A stretch of 39,120 bases of DNA, taken from assembly GCA_016781225.1 (NCBI GenBank), contig JADDQT010000001.1:10537-49656 (forward strand), written 5' to 3'. The notes beneath the pieces were generated by a model. That model was not told where the DNA came from, ran no database searches, and saw only the letters and a list, made by a program, of their open reading frames with translations. This document shows positions 7,263 to 39,120 of this stretch, one piece after another. The stretch is from Actinomycetota bacterium. GTDB lineage: Bacteria; Actinomycetota; Acidimicrobiia; Acidimicrobiales; GCA-2861595. The first letter of the stretch is position 1. Every line of letters starts with the position of its first letter. The position numbers and the translations under genes were made by a program.

Positions 7263-7346
7263 GTCGGAGTGGCGGAATAGGTAGACGCGCTAGCTTGAGG
7301 GGCTAGTGCCCGCAAGGGCGTGGGGGTTCAAGTCCCCCCTCCGACA
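7263..7346 (+). tRNA. tRNA-Leu, anticodon GAG, class II with long variable arm; no encoded CCA
   Basis: Hand fold:
- acceptor GTCGGAG/CTCCGAC plus discriminator A
- D arm GCG-GAATAGGTAGA-CGC
- anticodon stem CTAGC/GCTAG with loop TTGAGGG
- variable arm GCCC-GCAA-GGGC
- T arm GGGGG-TTCAAGT-CCCCC. Confidence 0.9.
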
Positions 7347-7462
7347 CTGGCGATACGGACACCTAGATCCGCAGTCGCCTCGACCACCTTCTCGTGCGGG
7401 TCGTACACGGCGCGGAGCCCGATCTCCTCGTAGAACGGGTGCGCAGCTTCGGATGGGTCACC
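7328..7462 (-). other. Out-of-frame (-1) conserved-looking integrase C-terminal segment, crossing the att core into the tRNA
   Basis: Reads GDPSEAAHPFYEEIGLRAVYDPHEKVVEATADLGVRIASVGGGT*. It joins the main frame at the G4 run (C-run 7461-7464 on the + strand). Confidence 0.55.
7336..7344 (+). other. attL core CCCCTCCGA (tRNA T-stem and acceptor 3' strand)
   Basis: This is the only segment shared exactly by the tRNA end, the inter-copy junction and the distal end. Confidence 0.7.
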
Positions 7463-12733: not shown

Positions 12734-14005
12734 ATGGCCCGATGTGGCGCTGTATCGCTTCAGAAGTCCCTCTTTGCATCCTTGGGACGGGATGGCCTCG
12801 ATGCTGAGTTTCATCGATGTAATTTGGGTCCCGTGGGTAACGTCGCCGGGTTCACGGTCGCCGCGCTGTTCGCCGGAATCGGTGGCATCGAGCGCGGCCT
12901 CGAGAAGGTCGGCGGACATACCGAACTCCTCTGCGAGAACTGGGATCCAGCAGTCGCCGTTCTCGGCGAGCGTTTCCCGGACGTGCCAATGGTGGGGGAC
13001 GTCAGGGATCTACGGTCGCTGCCGAAGGTCGACGTGGTCACGGCGGGCTTCCCGTGCACCGACCTCTCTCAGGCGGGGCGGACGAAAGGGATCCAGGGCA
13101 ACGCGTCCGGCCTCGTCGCCGAGGTGTTCCGTCTTCTGAAGCGCACCAAGGCCCCTGTACTGCTCCTCGAGAATGTGCGGAACATGCTCGTTCTCGACGG
13201 GGGCAAGGCCATGCGGTACCTCGTTGCGGAACTTGAGGCCCTCGGCTACCGCTGGGCCTATCGTCTCGTCGACTCTCGCTTTACGGGAGTCCCTCAGCGG
13301 CGCCAGCGCGTCATCTTCGTGGCAGCAAGGGAAATCGATCCACGGGCAGTGCTGTTCGCCGATGATGCGGGTGAGCCGGACGCCGAGCGTTACAGCGACG
13401 CGTGCTTCGGGTTCTACTGGACCGAGGGGCTGCGCGGCCTCGGATGGGCGAAGGACGCGGTGCCTACGCTCAAGGGCGGGTCCACGATCGGCATACCCTC
13501 GCCGCCGGCAATATGGGCGCCGAACAACCAGCTCGGTCTCCGTCTGGTCACTCCCGCGATCGAAGATGCCGAGGAACTACAGGGATTCGAACCTGGGTGG
13601 ACCGAGCCGGCCGAGCTGGTCACCAAGCGGCGTGGGACCCGCTGGAAGTTGATCGGTAACGCCGTCACCGTCGGCGTGTCGACGTGGTTTGGTCGGCGAT
13701 TGGCCGATCCGGGAGAGCCATTCCTCGAGGGAGCGGCGGTTCAGTCGGGCGACCGATGGCCCAACGCCGCGTTCGGGGCCTCCGGCAAGGCGTGGGCGGT
13801 TGACGTGTCGATGTGGCCCACACACCAGCCATACCGTCATCTCGCGGAAGTGATGGATCTCCTGCGCGCGACACCTGTGTCTGCGCGAGGCGCTGGGGGC
13901 TTCCTTTCGCGTGCGCAGCGTGGAAGCCTTCGGTTCATGGATGGCTTCCTAGAGGATGTCGCCGAGCACGTCCGCTTCATGAACGAGGAACTGTTTGGCG
14001 CCTGA
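12734..14005 (+). CDS. dcm: DNA (cytosine-5)-methyltransferase; the start is uncertain (ATG 12734 or GTG 12833)
   Basis: Motif I LFAGIGG, motif IV GFPCTDLSQAG, motif VI LLLENVRNM, motif VIII QRRQRV, motif X LIGNAVTV. Confidence 0.9.
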   Translation: MARCGAVSLQKSLFASLGRDGLDAEFHRCNLGPVGNVAGFTVAALFAGIGGIERGLEKVGGHTELLCENWDPAVAVLGERFPDVPMVGDVRDLRSLPKVDVVTAGFPCTDLSQAGRTKGIQGNASGLVAEVFRLLKRTKAPVLLLENVRNMLVLDGGKAMRYLVAELEALGYRWAYRLVDSRFTGVPQRRQRVIFVAAREIDPRAVLFADDAGEPDAERYSDACFGFYWTEGLRGLGWAKDAVPTLKGGSTIGIPSPPAIWAPNNQLGLRLVTPAIEDAEELQGFEPGWTEPAELVTKRRGTRWKLIGNAVTVGVSTWFGRRLADPGEPFLEGAAVQSGDRWPNAAFGASGKAWAVDVSMWPTHQPYRHLAEVMDLLRATPVSARGAGGFLSRAQRGSLRFMDGFLEDVAEHVRFMNEELFGA

Positions 14006-20878: not shown

Positions 20879-21261
20879 ACGAGCCGGTCGAGTACCTGGA
20901 TCTGGACGACCTCATCGAGCTCGCCTCCGGGCTCCTGGGAGACCCGCCTCCCATCCGCGACGTCGGACTGCTCGGCTCCGCCGCCGCCCGGCCTCAGACG
21001 AGTGCCTTCGGTGAGGACGCCTACCCGGACATCTGGACCAAGGCGGCTGCGCTGCTCCAATCCATCCTCAAGAACCACGCCCTTGTTGACGGCAACAAGC
21101 GGCTCGGCTGGCTCGCCACGGCTACTTTCCTGGAGATCAACGGGATCCCGGTGACGCACATCGACAACGATGCCGTCCACGACTTCGTGATCGACGTGAC
21201 GGTCGGCCACCAGGATGTCGGCGAGATTGCCGGCGCCCTTCGCCGGCTCGCGGAGCCCTGA
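20875..21261 (+). CDS. doc: Fic/Doc-family toxin (death-on-curing)
   Basis: Doc-type motif NHALVDGNKRLGWLATATFLEING. It is translationally coupled to the antitoxin. Confidence 0.85.
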   Translation: MNEPVEYLDLDDLIELASGLLGDPPPIRDVGLLGSAAARPQTSAFGEDAYPDIWTKAAALLQSILKNHALVDGNKRLGWLATATFLEINGIPVTHIDNDAVHDFVIDVTVGHQDVGEIAGALRRLAEP

Positions 21262-21275
21262 GACGACCTGCAGAT

Positions 21276-21440
21276 TCACAACAACTCGATTCGTGTCCGC
21301 AAGGGGACAATCGCCCCTCCGACACTGGCGATACGGACACCTAGATCCGCAGTCGCCTCGACCACCTTCTCGTGCGGGTCGTACACGGCGCGGAGCCCGA
21401 TCTCCTCGTAGAACGGGTGCGCAGCTTCGGATGGGTCACC
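21276..21440 (-). other. Out-of-frame integrase C-terminal segment, copy 2, with a different tail after the att core
   Basis: Same -1 frame as copy 1, but it ends ...RIASVGGAIVPLRTRIELL* because it reads into the doc-side arm instead of the tRNA. Confidence 0.55.
21314..21322 (+). other. Inter-copy junction core (attP-like: doc-side arm joined to int-side arm)
   Basis: GGGGACAATCG-CCCCTCCGA-CACTGGCGATACGG. The left arm equals the attR left arm and the right arm equals the attL right arm. Confidence 0.7.
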
Positions 21441-26711: not shown

Positions 26712-27983
26712 ATGGCCCGATGTGGCGCTGTATCGCTTCAGAAGTCCCTCTTTGCATCCTTGGGACGGGATGGCCTCGATGCTGAGTTTCATCGATGTAA
26801 TTTGGGTCCCGTGGGTAACGTCGCCGGGTTCACGGTCGCCGCGCTGTTCGCCGGAATCGGTGGCATCGAGCGCGGCCTCGAGAAGGTCGGCGGACATACC
26901 GAACTCCTCTGCGAGAACTGGGATCCAGCAGTCGCCGTTCTCGGCGAGCGTTTCCCGGACGTGCCAATGGTGGGGGACGTCAGGGATCTACGGTCGCTGC
27001 CGAAGGTCGACGTGGTCACGGCGGGCTTCCCGTGCACCGACCTCTCTCAGGCGGGGCGGACGAAAGGGATCCAGGGCAACGCGTCCGGCCTCGTCGCCGA
27101 GGTGTTCCGTCTTCTGAAGCGCACCAAGGCCCCTGTACTGCTCCTCGAGAATGTGCGGAACATGCTCGTTCTCGACGGGGGCAAGGCCATGCGGTACCTC
27201 GTTGCGGAACTTGAGGCCCTCGGCTACCGCTGGGCCTATCGTCTCGTCGACTCTCGCTTTACGGGAGTCCCTCAGCGGCGCCAGCGCGTCATCTTCGTGG
27301 CAGCAAGGGAAATCGATCCACGGGCAGTGCTGTTCGCCGATGATGCGGGTGAGCCGGACGCCGAGCGTTACAGCGACGCGTGCTTCGGGTTCTACTGGAC
27401 CGAGGGGCTGCGCGGCCTCGGATGGGCGAAGGACGCGGTGCCTACGCTCAAGGGCGGGTCCACGATCGGCATACCCTCGCCGCCGGCAATATGGGCGCCG
27501 AACAACCAGCTCGGTCTCCGTCTGGTCACTCCCGCGATCGAAGATGCCGAGGAACTACAGGGATTCGAACCTGGGTGGACCGAGCCGGCCGAGCTGGTCA
27601 CCAAGCGGCGTGGGACCCGCTGGAAGTTGATCGGTAACGCCGTCACCGTCGGCGTGTCGACGTGGTTTGGTCGGCGATTGGCCGATCCGGGAGAGCCATT
27701 CCTCGAGGGAGCGGCGGTTCAGTCGGGCGACCGATGGCCCAACGCCGCGTTCGGGGCCTCCGGCAAGGCGTGGGCGGTTGACGTGTCGATGTGGCCCACA
27801 CACCAGCCATACCGTCATCTCGCGGAAGTGATGGATCTCCTGCGCGCGACACCTGTGTCTGCGCGAGGCGCTGGGGGCTTCCTTTCGCGTGCGCAGCGTG
27901 GAAGCCTTCGGTTCATGGATGGCTTCCTAGAGGATGTCGCCGAGCACGTCCGCTTCATGAACGAGGAACTGTTTGGCGCCTGA
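26712..27983 (+). CDS. dcm: DNA (cytosine-5)-methyltransferase, copy 2
   Basis: Identical to 12734..14005. Confidence 0.9.
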   Translation: MARCGAVSLQKSLFASLGRDGLDAEFHRCNLGPVGNVAGFTVAALFAGIGGIERGLEKVGGHTELLCENWDPAVAVLGERFPDVPMVGDVRDLRSLPKVDVVTAGFPCTDLSQAGRTKGIQGNASGLVAEVFRLLKRTKAPVLLLENVRNMLVLDGGKAMRYLVAELEALGYRWAYRLVDSRFTGVPQRRQRVIFVAAREIDPRAVLFADDAGEPDAERYSDACFGFYWTEGLRGLGWAKDAVPTLKGGSTIGIPSPPAIWAPNNQLGLRLVTPAIEDAEELQGFEPGWTEPAELVTKRRGTRWKLIGNAVTVGVSTWFGRRLADPGEPFLEGAAVQSGDRWPNAAFGASGKAWAVDVSMWPTHQPYRHLAEVMDLLRATPVSARGAGGFLSRAQRGSLRFMDGFLEDVAEHVRFMNEELFGA

Positions 27984-28428
27984 GCCTGTGCGTCCGGGGC
28001 GGCCAGCAGCGTCGTCGGAGGAGATCCGACTTCGGATGCAGCGTCAGGCCGGCCGGGACACGAAGCCCGAACTCGCCCTCCGCCGAGAACTGTGGCGTCG
28101 AGGATTGCGGTACCGAGTCGACCTTGCACCCATCAGTGGGCTTCCTCGTCGAGCCGACATGGTCTTCAGCCGCGCACGAGTCGCTGTCTACGTGGACGGG
28201 TGTTACTGGCACAGCTGCCCGGATCACGCCACGGTCCCGAAGGCCAACCGCGACTGGTGGGTCGCGAAGCTTGAGGCGAACGTGAAGCGTGATCGTGACA
28301 CCGATGCTCGATTGCGATGGGCGGGTTGGGAGGTGGTGCGCGTGTGGGAGCACGAGACGATCGTCGACGCGGCAGATCGGATCGAGTCCGTCGCGCGCGA
28401 GCGACCTGGCAGCGCCGGGAGCGGATGA
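27973..28428 (+). CDS. vsr: Vsr endonuclease, copy 2
   Basis: Identical to 13995..14450. Confidence 0.9.
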   Translation: MAPEPVRPGRPAASSEEIRLRMQRQAGRDTKPELALRRELWRRGLRYRVDLAPISGLPRRADMVFSRARVAVYVDGCYWHSCPDHATVPKANRDWWVAKLEANVKRDRDTDARLRWAGWEVVRVWEHETIVDAADRIESVARERPGSAGSG

Positions 28429-34561: not shown

Positions 34562-34652
34562 GCTGGCCGGCGGGACCGCGAATCCAAGGCTCAGGGGAAA
34601 GCTCATGCATCGCCCCGGCCCCAGGCGGTATCAAGGTGATACCATAACCGGC

Positions 34653-34856
34653 ATGGCTATGACTCTTCGACTGACCGAGGACGAGCAGGCCGCGCTCCGG
34701 CAACGAGCAGAGCGGGAGGGCATCTCGATGCAGGACGCGGCTCGGCGAGCCGTCCGCGACTACGTCGCCAGGGGCGAGCATCGGGATCGGGTGGCGGAGG
34801 CCGCCGAGCGAGTGAAGGCTGCCCATGCTGAAGCCCTCCGACGTCTCGGGGAGTGA
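34653..34856 (+). CDS. RHH antitoxin, copy 2
   Basis: Identical to 20675..20878. Confidence 0.8.
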   Translation: MAMTLRLTEDEQAALRQRAEREGISMQDAARRAVRDYVARGEHRDRVAEAAERVKAAHAEALRRLGE

Positions 34857-35239
34857 ACGAGCCGGTCGAGTACCTGGATCTGGACGACCTCATCGAGCTC
34901 GCCTCCGGGCTCCTGGGAGACCCGCCTCCCATCCGCGACGTCGGACTGCTCGGCTCCGCCGCCGCCCGGCCTCAGACGAGTGCCTTCGGTGAGGACGCCT
35001 ACCCGGACATCTGGACCAAGGCGGCTGCGCTGCTCCAATCCATCCTCAAGAACCACGCCCTTGTTGACGGCAACAAGCGGCTCGGCTGGCTCGCCACGGC
35101 TACTTTCCTGGAGATCAACGGGATCCCGGTAACGCACATCGACAACGATGCCGTCTACGACTTCGTGATCGACGTGACGGTCGGCCACCAGGATGTCGGC
35201 GAGATTGCCAGCGGCCTTCGCCGGCTCGCGGAGCCCTGA
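34853..35239 (+). CDS. doc: Fic/Doc toxin, copy 2 (variant allele: H->Y, AGAL->ASGL near the C-terminus)
   Basis: Same as 20875..21261 apart from substitutions at 35131 (synonymous), 35156, 35210 and 35214. Confidence 0.85.
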   Translation: MNEPVEYLDLDDLIELASGLLGDPPPIRDVGLLGSAAARPQTSAFGEDAYPDIWTKAAALLQSILKNHALVDGNKRLGWLATATFLEINGIPVTHIDNDAVYDFVIDVTVGHQDVGEIASGLRRLAEP

Positions 35240-35291
35240 GACGACCTGCAGATTCACAACACCTCGATCCGTGTCCGGAAGGGGACAATCG

Positions 35292-35300
35292 CCCCTCCGA
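35292..35300 (+). other. attR core CCCCTCCGA
   Basis: The island sequence ends here and is followed by unique GACGGTCCTTACGC. Confidence 0.7.
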
Positions 35301-35320
35301 GACGGTCCTTACGCACGTAG

Positions 35321-38300
35321 CTACGCGACCGCTGCGGCGAAAGCGGCGTAGAGATCCCCGGGGAGCGGATGGTGCAGCTCCCAGGTTATTGCCATTGGCT
35401 TCTCGCCTACGTGGCCTCGATAGGTGGCGGGGCCGAGGAACCAAAAGGATCGCTCGTCGGCCCGGAGGCGGGTGAACAGCAGGATCGCCCGGCCCTCGCG
35501 CTCGTGGTTGCGGTACCGCATGCCGGTGGCGCTGTCGGCTCGAGTCTTCGACTGGCTCTCCCAGTGGACCAGCGTGCGGCTGATGGCGTAGTCCCGGTAC
35601 CTCGTGGTGGGGGAGAAGCTGCCGCTGCTCTTGTCCAGAGTGAAGGCGAACAGTTCGGCGTTCGCCTCCTTGGCCTCGTACACGCCGCTCTGCCAGGCGG
35701 CGATCTTGGCGCCGGGGCTCAGGGCAAAGGCGGCGAGGATCTCGATGCGGCTGTAGCGGGCGTGGACCTGGAGTGGCGCTTCGGGATGGGTGGAGAGGCG
35801 GCGGTGCACGTGATCGACGCGGTCGGCGAGCACCGCCAGGAGGTCGAGTAGCTCGACTCGCACTTGGGGATGCGTCCACAGGAGATCGACTGCCTCCTGC
35901 ACCGTGCGTTCGCGAGTGAGAGCCCGGTCGGCGATCGGGGCGACGAGCATGTGGAGGAGCCTCCGCTCTCGCTCGGCCAGTGCTGACACTGTTGGGTTAG
36001 CGGGGTTGCTGAGGAGCCGCTGGTAGGTGCCTATCCGTTCCTCGTCGTCGACATGGAGGAGGCGGCCGACGGCGCGCCGAAGCATCGGCTCATGCGGACC
36101 GGCCGGGAGCACGGGCGCGTCGGCCGCCTGGCGAAGGTCTGACCAGCTCTTGCCGCCTTCATAGACATCGTCGAGGTCGAGCCCCGACTCGTCCAGGAAG
36201 CCGGCCAGGTCGATCTCCGGCCGGTCTCGGAGGAGCGAACGCAGCTCGTCGACCTTGGCTGGCCATCTTGAAGGGATGGCGTCGCGCAGGCTCCGCAACA
36301 CGATCTCCGCCGCCTTCTGGTCGAGCTGCATGTGGCACCCGGCCGGGAGGAAGGGGAACTGCAGCGCCACGGCTCGTTCGACGTCTCGGCGGGTGCCACC
36401 GAGCAGGGCCCGGTAGCGGCGGTCGAAGCGGAACTCCCTGCGGTGGATACCGACGAAGTCCAGAACGGTGCAGAAGGCCTTTCCCCTCGTCTTGCGCAGG
36501 CCCCGCCCGAGCTGCTGTAGGAAGAGGGTGGGACTCTCGGTCGGCCGGAGCATGAGGACGGTGTCAACGGCGGGAACGTCGACGCCCTCGTTGAACAGGT
36601 CGACGGAGAACACGGTTCGCACTCGACCTTCAGCCAAGTCCCGGAGTGCCGACTCTCGCTCGGCGCGCGGGCTGTCACCCCAAACGGCCACGGCATCGAT
36701 CCCGTGCCGTGTGAAGTGCTGGGCCATGAAGCGGGCGTGGTCGATGCTCACGCAAAAGCCGAGGCAGCGCATCGAAGTCGGTTCGACGTGCTGGGTGACT
36801 TGGTGCACTACGAGCCGAGCCCACGCGTCGGAGCTCGTGTACGCACCGCTGAGCGCTTCGACGTCGTACCCACGGCCCCTCCGCCAAGGAATTTGGCGCA
36901 GGCGAGGCCGTCGTGAATCCCGAAGTAGAGGAACGGGGCGAGGTACTGCTGGTCGATCGCATCCCAGAGGCGCAGCTCGGCAGCGATGCGGTCGTCGAAC
37001 CATTGAAGGACTGGGAGGCCGTCGCTACGTTCCGGTGTGGCAGTGAGACCGAGCAGCTCAACAGGGGCGAGCCGGCGGAGCACCCGCTCGTATGACGCTG
37101 CGGCAGCGTGGTGGAACTCGTCGACGATGACCACGTCGAAGTGATCAGCCGCGAGGGCATCGAGCCCGCTGGCGTTGATGCTCTGGATTGAGGCGAAGAC
37201 ATGATCGAACCTGGCAGGTCGCGATCTGCCGACCCACTTTTCGCCGAATGACGCCTCACGTAGCGCGTAGCGGAAGGTGCCGACGCTCTGGTCGAGGATC
37301 TCTTCCCGGTGGGCGATGAAGAGCAGGCGTGATCGCTCTAGCTGCTGGCGAAGCCGCCCGTAGTCGACAGCCGCCATCACGGTCTTGCCGGTGCCGGTCG
37401 CTGCGACGAGCAAATTCCGATGGTGTCCGCCCTGGCGTGACAGCTCGAGCAGCTCCAGGAGTCTCTCCTGAAAGGGAAGCGGCCGAAGCTCGATCGGACT
37501 CAGGATGACCTGTGGTCCACTGTCCGCCAGGCCGGCTCGGCGTCGCTCGTCCTCGAACTGCTCGGGGTCGTAGGCCAGGAAGTCGCCGGCTGCCCAATAG
37601 CTGTCGAACACAGCACCAAACTTGGCCAGGACATCGGGGTTTCGAGCCGCCGACGCTCGCACGTTCCACTCGAGGCCGGTGACCTGGGCCGAATGCGTGA
37701 GGTTCGACGAACCGACGTAGGCAGTCGAGAAGCCCGAGCGGCGATGGAAGATCCACGCCTTGGCGTGCAGCCGTGTCGTGCTCAAGTCGTAAGAGATACG
37801 CACCTCGGCGCCGAGGTCGACGAGCTGGTCCAAGGCTCGACGTTCGGTCGATCCCGTGTAGGTCGTGGTCAGGACCCGCAACGGCTTTCCCATGTCGCAA
37901 TGGCGTTCGAGCGAGTCGAGCAGGGGGGCGATGCCGCTGCGCCGGATGAATGCCATGACGACATCTACTGCGTCGGCCGAGTGGATTTCCGAGCGGAGCT
38001 GGTTCCACAGGCTGGGCTCACCGGGCGCGTTGGTGAGCAGCGTCGTGTCGAGCAGTGGGATCAGCGGCTCGCTGAAGGCGTCTGGGCTGCCATCCGGGCG
38101 CCGCCTCAGAATGGCGTGGAGCACTGTCGCCGGTTCCACCGGCACTGCCGACTCATCGAGCTCGACCAGCTCACCCAGCCGGTCGAGCAACGCCCGTGCA
38201 ACGCTCAGACCCACCTGGACCCGCTCGTCGTCGCGCACGTCGGCGAGGGCCCGCTCGATCTGACGGCTGAGGTGCCAGGCGATCCGGTCCGATGCTTCGG

Positions 38301-38412
38301 CAGCCCTGATCCCGCGTTGCTCGGTCGGAAACCGCTCGGCCAGCTGGTCCAGCTGGATCTTCAGACCCTCGCTGACGAGCGTCTCGTAGAGCCCCGGTCC
38401 CAACTCCTCCAT
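35321..38412 (-). pseudogene. SauUSI-like type IV (modification-dependent) restriction enzyme: PLD nuclease, SF2 helicase and DUF3427, split by a frameshift near 36895-36912
   Basis: The N-terminal ORF 36808..38412 carries the HKD motif (RLHAKAWIF...VGSSNLT), AATGTGKT, DEFHH and LGLTATPER. It ends off-frame after ...YFGIHDG. The second ORF 35321..37003 resumes with ...LRQIPWRRGRGYDVEAL and carries QQLGRGLR and a DUF3427-like tail (RYRDYAISRTLVHWESQS...ILLFTR). Confidence 0.75.
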
Positions 38413-38485
38413 AGCGCGAAGTTAGGTGGGAGTAGCGCTTGGCTGCTCACCCCTCCGGTCGGCTTGAATAGCGTCAAACACGGCT

Positions 38486-38665
38486 ATGAGCCTTCGGCTC
38501 ACCGATGATGAGCAGGCAGGGCTCCTGCGGGCCGAGCGCGAGGGCATCTCGCTGCAGGACGCGCCTCGGCGGGCCGTCCGCGACTACGCCGCCAAGGGCG
38601 AGCACCGTGACCGGGTGGCCGAGGCCGCCGAGCGGGTAAGGGCCCGCCCACGCCGAAGCCCTTGA
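38486..38665 (+). pseudogene. Diverged paralogue of the island RHH antitoxin, with a 1-nt indel altering the last ~14 aa
   Basis: MSLRLTDDEQAGLLRAEREGISLQDAPRRAVRDYAAKGEHRDRVAEAAERV aligns with the island antitoxin. The tail then reads RARPRRSP*. Removing one G would restore ...AHAEALERLQSE*. Confidence 0.6.
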
Positions 38666-38676
38666 ACGCCTGCAGA

Positions 38677-38818
38677 GTGAGTGAGCCGGTCGAAGGCCTC
38701 ATCCGGCGTGACGTAGGTGGTGAACGATGGCGTGCACCACTTCGTGATCGGCGTGGCGGTCGGCCACGACGACGTTGATGACATCGCTCAGGCCCTTCAC
38801 GATCTCGTGAGCCAATGA
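38677..38818 (+). pseudogene. Doc toxin remnant with an internal ~245-bp deletion
   Basis: GTG-AGT-GAG-CCG-GTC-GAA matches the island doc start (VNEPVE). At 38723-38818 a different frame reads NDGVHHFVIGVAVGHDDVDDIAQALHDLVSQ*, matching the island Doc C-terminus NDAVHDFVIDVTVGHQDVGEIAGAL. The Fic core is absent. Confidence 0.6.
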
Positions 38819-39120
38819 TCGGTGGCTGACCCAGCGGGTCCCCTGTTCGCTGAGCAGGAACCATCGACAGCGGGGTTGCGCCGGTCCGGTACACTCTGGC
38901 TGCGGGTGAAGGGCCACCCCCGACTCGGCGGTCACCAAGGACGCAGCCGGTGCGTCGATCGCCATTGGAAACAGAGCCCGCCGTGCTCGGTGCCCAATCC
39001 TCAAGCCGGGGAGCGGGTGAGGTCCGAACCGGGGAATGACGTGTCCCGTCGCACTGTCGGCGGCCTGCGGCGGAGGAACGCCGAATCACACACATGGACG
39101 ACACCAGACCAGCCGTTGAG

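What the first reader, a model, noticed from the sequence alone, without database searches (positions are those of the whole stretch)
35321..38412. The chromosomal SauUSI-like m5C-dependent restriction gene next to the Dcm-carrying island is broken by a frameshift
**Architecture.** The gene has the SauUSI layout: an N-terminal PLD/HKD nuclease, an SF2 helicase (AATGTGKT, DEFHH, QQLGRGLR) and a C-terminal DUF3427. In SauUSI the DUF3427 domain is the modified-cytosine recognition domain.

**Frameshift.** The reading frame breaks right after ...LAPFLYFGIHDG. It resumes in another frame as ...LRQIPWRRGRGYDVEAL, consistent with a single-nucleotide indel around 36895-36912.

**Position and interpretation.** The stop codon lies only 20 bp from attR. 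The empty site would therefore be tRNA-Leu followed directly by this gene. A host enzyme that cuts m5C DNA is incompatible with acquiring two copies of a dcm-bearing island. Inactivating it is the expected outcome of that conflict, unless the frameshift is a sequencing error.
Basis: partly seen in the sequence, partly recalled or inferred. Interest (0 to 1): 0.6.

Follow-up and report, generated by a model that had tools for sequence, protein, structure and literature searches.

The report
Frameshifted SauUSI-like restriction gene
A gene for an enzyme that cuts methylated foreign DNA has lost one base in this uncultured actinobacterium; this is ordinary gene decay, and comparison with other genomes does not support the proposed link to the neighbouring DNA-methylase island.

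Summary
On the minus strand, 38412 to 35321 encodes a SauUSI-family type IV restriction enzyme: PLD nuclease, SF2 ATPase, DUF3427/SRA reader. Its frame is broken by a single-base deletion between 36903 and 36902. The lost base is the A of a GAC (Asp) codon that is 99% conserved in 106 intact 1030-aa relatives. It is the only lesion. The site is not in a homopolymer.

A second, more contiguous assembly of the same strain carries the same break. I therefore rate it real at about 0.8. Reads could not be checked.

- The gene is not a conserved chromosomal gene. It lies in a variable tRNA-Leu to SNF2 interval, is absent from four congeners, and sits on mobile elements elsewhere.
- Genomes carrying an orthologue of the island Dcm do not avoid this enzyme family: 1 of 20 has an intact copy, against about 32 of 400 in the background.
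- One genome (G493) holds an intact 74% orthologue together with an intact 69% Dcm-Vsr pair.
- The same strain also has a frameshifted type I hsdR.
- Broken alleles of this family occur elsewhere without this Dcm.

Verdict: an ordinary, recent defence-gene pseudogene. Conflict with Dcm remains possible but unshown.

The parts
35321..38412 (-). Whole SauUSI-family type IV restriction pseudogene. With the missing base it would encode 1030 aa, counted as 503 + 1 + 526.
36808..38412 (-). N-terminal ORF of 534 aa. It has 503 native residues (PLD/HKD nuclease, SF2 RecA1 lobe with motifs I-III) followed by 31 out-of-frame residues and a TAG stop.
   Evidence: Aligns to SauUSI residues 32-412.
35321..36901 (-). 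C-terminal reading frame of 526 codons plus stop: RecA2 lobe (Helicase_C, QQLGRGLR), coupler, and DUF3427/SRA-like reader domain. The first ATG in this frame is at 36772, giving the 483-aa product annotated in GenBank.
36902..36903 (-). Site of the single-base deletion. The A of a GAC (Asp) codon is missing. The context is not a homopolymer and not a slippery site.
   Evidence: alignment with L006-L009. (Asp is 99% conserved in 106 intact homologues).
35292..35300 (+). attR core CCCCTCCGA of the serine-recombinase island, 20 bp from the gene's stop codon.
26712..27983 (+). Island C5 cytosine methylase (Dcm), 423 aa, in copy 2. The identical gene lies at 12734-14005 in copy 1. Motifs FAGIGG, PC, ENV, QRRQR and GNAV are present.
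27973..28428 (+). Vsr-type mismatch endonuclease downstream of the Dcm.
   Evidence: PF03852 on the identical Logan contig..
38470..38810 (+). Decayed copy (81% identity) of the island's phd-doc module, with doc deleted internally. It lies between the gene's start and the SNF2 gene.
   Evidence: A related doc next to the SNF2 gene in G003.
39094..39120 (+). First 27 bases of the conserved SNF2/DUF3670 helicase gene, where conserved chromosome resumes. The contig ends here.
7263..7347 (+). tRNA-Leu(GAG), the left border of the variable interval.

Best explanation
**What it is.** This is a real, recent loss-of-function allele of an accessory SauUSI-family type IV restriction gene.

**How the intact enzyme works.** This is inferred from SauUSI. 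The C-terminal SRA-like DUF3427 domain flips out 5-methylcytosine. That switches on the SF2 ATPase, which translocates along DNA. The dimeric N-terminal PLD nuclease then cuts.

**What the lesion does.** One base is lost between the two RecA lobes. Translation now ends after the PLD nuclease and RecA1 lobe. RecA2, the coupler and the reader domain are no longer attached.

**Age and context.** Nothing else in the gene has decayed, so the event is young. The gene is a single-gene cassette in a tRNA-Leu hot spot for mobile and defence DNA. It is not a core gene.

**What fixed the mutation.** Sequence alone cannot say. I rate plain decay of a dispensable or costly defence nuclease slightly ahead of a specific clash with the island Dcm. 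The type I hsdR of the same strain is also broken.
For: - **Family and domains:**. Mechanism of SauUSI: PMC7913695 and PMC3141236.
- **Reader pocket:** the equivalents of SauUSI F841, D858 and W868 are kept in the aligned reader domain.
- **Lesion:** a one-base deletion at 36902/36903 against four intact relatives.
- **Length:** the restored length would be 1030 aa, the modal length of homologues.
- **Only lesion:** of 458 columns that are at least 97% conserved in 106 intact homologues, the window differs at 5, all conservatively. Intact controls differ at 0-9.
- **Same break in a second assembly:** GCA_017884105.1 has it on a 200-kb contig with different neighbouring structure. The DNA from 34858 to 39120 is identical, with no gaps.
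- **No indel noise:** the two island copies show no indels over 14 kb.
- **Accessory status:**
- **Recurrent breakage of the family:** G160, G081, G237 and G276, and about 11 truncated forms among the 120 best hits.
- **hsdR also frameshifted, in both assemblies:**
Against: - No read-level check was possible.
- The two assemblies come from one project and are identical over the gene, so they may share data or a systematic error.
- The strain carries at least five single-base frame breaks (mREase, hsdR, DUF2252, an IS256-type transposase, a 5'-nucleotidase). Two of these are in ordinary genes, which leaves some room for consensus errors.
- No near-identical intact allele exists in any collection to compare with.
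- A fresh single lesion beside a recently arrived Dcm island is also what the conflict reading predicts.
Confidence: 0.5

Rival explanations
1. The enzyme recognised the 5mC mark written by the island's Dcm. After the island arrived, cells with an active enzyme cut their own DNA, and the frameshift was selected as the escape. Alternatively, a pre-existing null allele was what allowed the island to establish.
For: - An intact Dcm-Vsr pair lies on an island 20 bp from the gene.
- The island copies are near-identical, so recent, and the gene has a single fresh lesion.
- The reader domain keeps SRA pocket residues.
- The principle is shown experimentally elsewhere: McrBC against an incoming methylase (PMC2614495), Mrr against StyLTI Mod (PMC3152355), and PcaRCII against a Dcm-like methylase (PMC8989522).
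- In G830 a decayed DUF3427 gene lies 2 kb from a Dcm orthologue.
- 18 of 20 genomes with a Dcm orthologue carry neither a full-length copy nor a reader-domain (DUF3427) remnant of the enzyme.
Against: - Full-length copies occur in 1 of 20 Dcm-orthologue genomes. This matches the background of about 32 of 400 full-length copies.
- G493 has an intact 74% orthologue (reader domain 80-86% identical) and an intact 69% Dcm with Vsr.
- A second, unrelated C5 methylase on C367 is an equally good suspect.
- hsdR does not read methylation, yet it is broken too.
- Broken alleles occur elsewhere without this Dcm.
- Neither the Dcm motif nor the enzyme's specificity is known.
- The sibling assembly has one full island, not two.
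Confidence: 0.27
2. Assembly or consensus artefact. The organism has an intact 1030-aa gene, and one base was dropped in the consensus of both metagenome-derived assemblies.
For: - The genome is a fragmented MAG (467 contigs, N50 7.3 kb, 85.6% complete).
- At least five one-base frame breaks were found, some in ordinary genes.
- The gene has no other defect.
- The two assemblies are identical over the gene and could share reads.
- Reads could not be examined.
Against: - The break is present in a second assembly with very different contiguity and a different island structure.
- The hsdR and DUF2252 breaks are shared in the same way.
- The site is not a homopolymer.
- There are no indels between the two 14-kb island copies, nor in 7.2 kb compared between the assemblies.
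- No intact near-identical protein exists in a collection that includes per-run Logan assemblies.
Confidence: 0.17
3. The split gene still works as a two-subunit enzyme. The 534-aa piece (PLD and RecA1) and a 483-aa piece started at the ATG at 36772 (RecA2, coupler, reader) would assemble non-covalently.
For: - An in-frame ATG lies 36 nt after the first ORF's stop, exactly where the conserved RecA2 core begins.
- Natural SauUSI-like systems with the reader domain on a separate protein are reported (PMC6765204).
Against: - The cut falls inside the ATPase core rather than between domains.
- About 43 native residues are lost and 31 foreign ones are added.
- No Shine-Dalgarno-like sequence precedes the ATG.
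- All but a few of 120 close homologues are single 1030-aa chains.
Confidence: 0.05

Closest known systems
SauUSI of Staphylococcus aureus (PDB 7CLG; PMC3141236, PMC7913695)
   Same: - Same domain order: PLD/HKD nuclease, SF2 ATPase, helical coupler, C-terminal DUF3427/SRA reader.
- Both halves hit the crystal chain, at E 9e-45 and E 9e-29.
- The HAK...GSSNLT nuclease motif, ATGTGKT, DEFHH, TATPER and QQLGRGLR are conserved.
- The equivalents of pocket residues F841, D858 and W868 are kept.
   Different: - The intact form would be 1030 aa, against 953 aa for SauUSI.
- The reader domain aligns only weakly, so the sequence context recognised (S5mCNGS in SauUSI) cannot be assumed.
- Here the gene is split by a frameshift and is presumably inactive.
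PADLOC mREase_IV model PDLC03659, the actinobacterial 1030-aa 'DUF3427 domain-containing protein' clade
   Same: The profile is matched end to end (12-416 and 418-941 of 945). Thousands of relatives are 77-87% identical, almost all 1030 aa.
   Different: This allele is broken. As far as I found, none of the clade has been characterised biochemically.
Epigenetic conflicts between methylation-dependent nucleases and incoming methylases: McrBC (PMC2614495), Mrr against StyLTI Mod (PMC3152355), PcaRCII against PcaRCI (PMC8989522)
   Same: A solitary methylation-dependent nuclease sits beside a newly acquired mobile methylase, and one partner is silenced or lost.
   Different: In those cases toxicity, anti-correlation or silencing was demonstrated. 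Here none could be shown: co-occurrence is at the background rate, and one genome keeps both partners intact.
DUF3427-PD-(D/E)XK fusions (McaZI/YenY4I groups, PMC6765204)
   Same: They share the DUF3427 reader, occur in defence islands that often include C5 methylases, and some are toxic to Dcm+ E. coli.
   Different: They have a different nuclease and no ATPase.

Membership tests
SauUSI-type type IV restriction enzyme | N-terminal PLD/HKD nuclease domain | tested here: met
   PLDc_2 at E 5e-9 and RE_NgoFVII at E 1e-5. HAKAWIF...GSSNLT aligns with HAKGYIF...GSSNLT of 7clg_A.
SauUSI-type type IV restriction enzyme | SF2 helicase-like ATPase with both RecA lobes | tested here: met
   ResIII at E 4e-33 in the first piece and Helicase_C at E 9e-14 in the second. 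Motifs I, II, III and VI are seen. The two lobes are now in different frames.
SauUSI-type type IV restriction enzyme | C-terminal DUF3427 / SRA-fold target recognition domain | tested here: met
   DUF3427 at E 7e-21. A weak alignment to SauUSI 839-916 keeps the F841, D858 and W868 equivalents (residues from PMC7913695). The fold itself was not modelled.
SauUSI-type type IV restriction enzyme | All domains on one polypeptide | tested here: not met
   Split into a 534-aa ORF and a separate frame by a one-base deletion. Relatives are single 1030-aa chains. This is therefore a pseudogene of the family, not a working member.
SauUSI-type type IV restriction enzyme | ATP-dependent cleavage of 5mC/5hmC DNA and its sequence context | not testable with these tools
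   Needs biochemistry. The specificity of this clade is unknown.
Methylase versus methylation-dependent nuclease conflict resolved by loss of the nuclease | The resident methylase's mark is a substrate of the nuclease | not testable with these tools
   Neither the Dcm motif nor the nuclease's target is known.
Methylase versus methylation-dependent nuclease conflict resolved by loss of the nuclease | Anti-correlation of intact nuclease and methylase orthologues across genomes | tested here: inconclusive
   One full-length copy in 20 genomes with a Dcm orthologue, against about 32 in 400 background genomes. This shows no depletion, but the power is low.
Methylase versus methylation-dependent nuclease conflict resolved by loss of the nuclease | Close relatives without the methylase keep an intact nuclease | tested here: inconclusive
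   No close relative has the gene at all. Four congeners lack it, and the nearest intact copy is 87% identical in an unrelated context.
Methylase versus methylation-dependent nuclease conflict resolved by loss of the nuclease | Intact partners do not coexist | tested here: not met
   G493 has an intact nuclease (74% identity, profile 16-942, no stops) and an intact Dcm (69%, all motifs) with Vsr. Caveat: specificities may differ, or one gene may be silenced as in PMC8989522.

The most novel reading that the evidence does not exclude
The strain was caught just after an epigenetic conflict. Arrival of a Dcm-Vsr island at tRNA-Leu made the neighbouring 5mC-dependent SauUSI-like enzyme self-destructive, and a one-base deletion was selected as the escape. 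With the frameshifted hsdR, this would mark a lineage that has shed its restriction nucleases while keeping the methylases, which would open it to further mobile DNA.
Probability: 0.22. Interest if true: 0.45.

Novelty: new member of a known kind. Interest (0 to 1): 0.25.

Why it matters
If the break is real, it is one more natural null allele of a widespread, uncharacterised actinobacterial SauUSI clade, in a strain that carries two C5 methylases. That makes a cheap test case for whether this clade reads Dcm-type marks.

The idea of a clash between a methylation-dependent nuclease and a methylase is already established experimentally. Confirmation here would add an example, not a principle.

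For annotation, the useful points are:
- The two ORFs are one pseudogene.
- The gene is hot-spot cargo, not core chromosome.
- Proximity to a Dcm island is not evidence of cause.

Tried and rejected
- **Read-level check.** I did not pass run ids from another tool to read laying, because that tool asks for ids from the closed one.
- **Exact-pattern scans across the deletion.** With 0 or 1 extra base allowed, the scans found nothing in genome contigs or metagenome contigs.
- **Sibling record.** It is not held for whole-record searches. I reached it through exact-protein look-ups instead.
- **Search for a near-identical intact allele.** The N frame was read through its stops only to set the length filter. 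The only 100% hit is the fragment itself.
- **Look-up of copy-2 Doc.** This was meant to reach per-run Logan contigs across attR. Only the window's own assembly has it.
- **Frameshift census of the MAG.** The codon-usage method found the known case, but 11 of the 15 checked candidates were ordinary neighbouring genes. It gives a floor of five real breaks, not a rate.
- **Programmed frameshift or phase variation.** Rejected: there is no homopolymer, repeat or slippery heptamer at the site.
- **phd-doc relic as marker of an older island.** I considered that the relic right of the gene marks an older island that brought the gene in. This stays unresolved. G003 has a tRNA 3' fragment and doc beside the SNF2 gene but no such gene.
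Full report
**What is there.** The minus strand from 38412 to 35321 carries one gene in two frames.
- The first ORF (36808-38412, 534 aa) matches PLDc_2 and ResIII.
- The second frame (35321 to about 36901) matches Helicase_C and DUF3427.
- The PADLOC type IV model PDLC03659 is covered at positions 12-416 by the first piece and 418-941 by the second, so essentially nothing is missing at the joint.
- Both pieces find the SauUSI crystal chain 7clg_A as best solved relative, at E 9e-45 and E 9e-29. The HKD nuclease motif and helicase motifs I, II, III and VI are conserved.
- In the weakly aligned reader domain, the equivalents of SauUSI pocket residues F841, D858 and W868 are kept (residues from PMC7913695).
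The literature does name DUF3427 as SauUSI's target recognition domain with an SRA fold (PMC6765204, PMC7913695).

**The lesion.**
- Aligned with four intact relatives (68-79% nucleotide identity), the window lacks one base. They read GGC CTC GAC CTN and the window reads GGCCTCG-CCTG. The A of an Asp codon is missing between 36903 and 36902.
- With it the product would be 503 + 1 + 526 = 1030 aa, the modal length of the family.
- The Asp is 99% conserved in 106 intact homologues.
- At 458 highly conserved columns the window's protein differs at only five, all conservatively. This is within the range of intact controls, 0-9. The frameshift is therefore the only defect and must be young.
- The site is not a homopolymer or a slippery sequence. 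I reject phase variation and programmed frameshifting.

**Real or artefact.**
- Exactly the same 534-aa and 483-aa products are annotated in a second GenBank assembly of the same project, GCA_017884105.1, on a 200-kb contig.
- Its DNA is gap-free against the window over 4.5 kb. The three mismatches all lie in the island end (34620-34857), and the gene itself is identical.
- That assembly differs in contiguity and in the structure of the island region, so it is a separate assembly of the same strain.
- The two 14-kb island copies differ by seven substitutions and no indels.
- No near-identical intact allele exists in the large protein collection. The only 100% hit is the fragment itself, and the nearest intact proteins are 87% identical.
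- Against this, the MAG is fragmented (N50 7.3 kb) and holds at least four more one-base frame breaks: hsdR, a DUF2252 gene, an IS256-type transposase and a 5'-nucleotidase.
- The hsdR and DUF2252 breaks are also in the sibling assembly.
- I put the chance that the deletion is real at about 0.8.

**Where the gene sits.**
- The stop codon is 20 bp from the attR core, as stated.
- The gene is not a conserved chromosomal gene. None of four same-genus genomes has it.
- The sibling contig shows that conserved chromosome resumes with an SNF2/DUF3670 helicase gene starting at 39094.
- Between tRNA-Leu(GAG) and that helicase, a congener (G002) carries 12.8 kb of other cargo: an XhoI-type restriction-modification pair, a Fic protein, a transposase and a toxin-antitoxin pair.
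- Another congener (G003) has a tRNA 3' fragment and a doc gene next to the helicase, plus a TraI-like helicase further upstream.
- In the window, a decayed phd-doc copy lies between the gene and the helicase.
- The nearest intact relatives share only the gene itself (82.8% DNA identity, no flank similarity). They sit beside AbiE and a TrwC relaxase.
- The gene is best seen as a single-gene defence cassette in an integration hot spot.

**The island.**
- One unit carries a large serine recombinase, an HNH_2 protein, an intact C5 methylase with all catalytic motifs, a Vsr, an IS3 element, a further operon and phd-doc.
- An earlier follow-up in this scan (e1-3898718) noted that the sibling assembly has only a relic where copy 2 sits. 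I see the same. 'Two copies of a dcm-bearing island' is therefore unproven, but one copy is certain.
- The genome also holds a third PF00145 gene on contig C367. It is only 27% identical to the island Dcm.

**Testing the conflict reading.** The principle is well established: McrBC, Mrr against Mod, and PcaRCII against PcaRCI (PMC2614495, PMC3152355, PMC8989522). I asked whether orthologues of this Dcm avoid this enzyme family.
- In samples of 400 genomes each from the order, class and phylum, 21 genomes carry a Dcm orthologue at 52-74% identity. I tested 20 of them.
- One (G493) has a full-length, stop-free enzyme. One (G830) has a decayed C-terminal remnant 2 kb from its Vsr-Dcm module. One (G163) has only a helicase-core match (profile 231-568) that probably belongs to another family. 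The remaining 17 have no match.
- The background in the order is about 32 full-length copies in 400 genomes, so about 1.6 were expected. There is no sign of avoidance, though the power is low.
- G493 is a direct counter-example. Its enzyme is 74% identical to ours, 80-86% in the reader domain. Its Dcm is 69% identical with all motifs, and has a Vsr next to it. Different specificities or silencing could still reconcile this.
- Same-contig split alleles of the enzyme occur in four other genomes that lack this Dcm: G160, G081, G237 and G276.
- Genomes with intact close orthologues (G015, G022) hold unrelated C5 methylases.
- The type I hsdR of this strain, which does not read methylation, is also frameshifted, while hsdM and hsdS are intact.

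**Conclusion.**
- The gene is a fresh pseudogene of a known family.
- The causal story is possible but not supported by what could be tested.
- I rank plain loss of an accessory defence nuclease slightly ahead of Dcm-driven loss. An assembly artefact is third, and a functional split enzyme is a distant fourth.
- The organism is an uncultured Acidimicrobiales-like actinobacterium, judged from the titles of its nearest relatives.
- Nothing here is new in kind.

Noticed in passing
Own genome contig C265:19958-23738 (loci L055, L065): The type I restriction subunit hsdR is split by a one-base frame break: PADLOC REase_I positions 10-682 in one frame and 684-999 in the next. hsdM and hsdS are intact. 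The break is identical in the sibling assembly. The system lies next to TraG/TrwC conjugation genes.
   Followed up: partly
Own genome C199:1315-2720, C410:1102-2315, C35:4-1588: Three further one-base frame breaks: a DUF2252 gene (profile 3-228 and 230-392), an IS256/Mutator-type transposase (8-162 and 163-377) and a 5'-nucleotidase. The DUF2252 break is also in the sibling assembly.
   Followed up: partly
Window 38470-38810; locus L051:11350-11930 (G003): A decayed phd-doc copy lies between the restriction gene and the SNF2 gene. The closest congener has a tRNA-Leu 3' fragment followed by a doc gene at the same place. This suggests an old island remnant, or an ancestral toxin-antitoxin pair, shared in the genus.
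   Followed up: partly
Locus L017:9813-10897 (sibling assembly): Where the window has island copy 2, the sibling assembly has only the last 700 bp of the island, 1.08 kb of DNA found nowhere in this genome, and the last 480 bp of the recombinase gene.
   Followed up: partly
Locus L052:1-13200 (G002): The same tRNA-Leu(GAG) to SNF2 interval in a congener holds an XhoI-type endonuclease with an Eco57I/TaqI_C-type N6 methylase, a Fic protein, a transposase and a Gp49/HTH pair. The site is a defence hot spot.
   Followed up: no
Locus L162:8975-14601 (G830): A Dcm orthologue (61%) with the same unnamed 318-aa neighbour and a Vsr lies 2 kb from a decayed DUF3427 gene, which has a stop, a frame change and no N-terminal half, and beside an AAA_15/AAA_21 ATPase.
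   Followed up: partly
Own genome C367:259-1299 (locus L025): A third C5 cytosine methylase sits on a 2.8-kb contig, only 27% identical to the island Dcm. It is an alternative source of 5mC in this genome.
   Followed up: no
Window 35131-35278 versus 21153-21300: All seven differences between the island copies are substitutions within the last 150 bp of the unit, next to attR and the junction.
   Followed up: no
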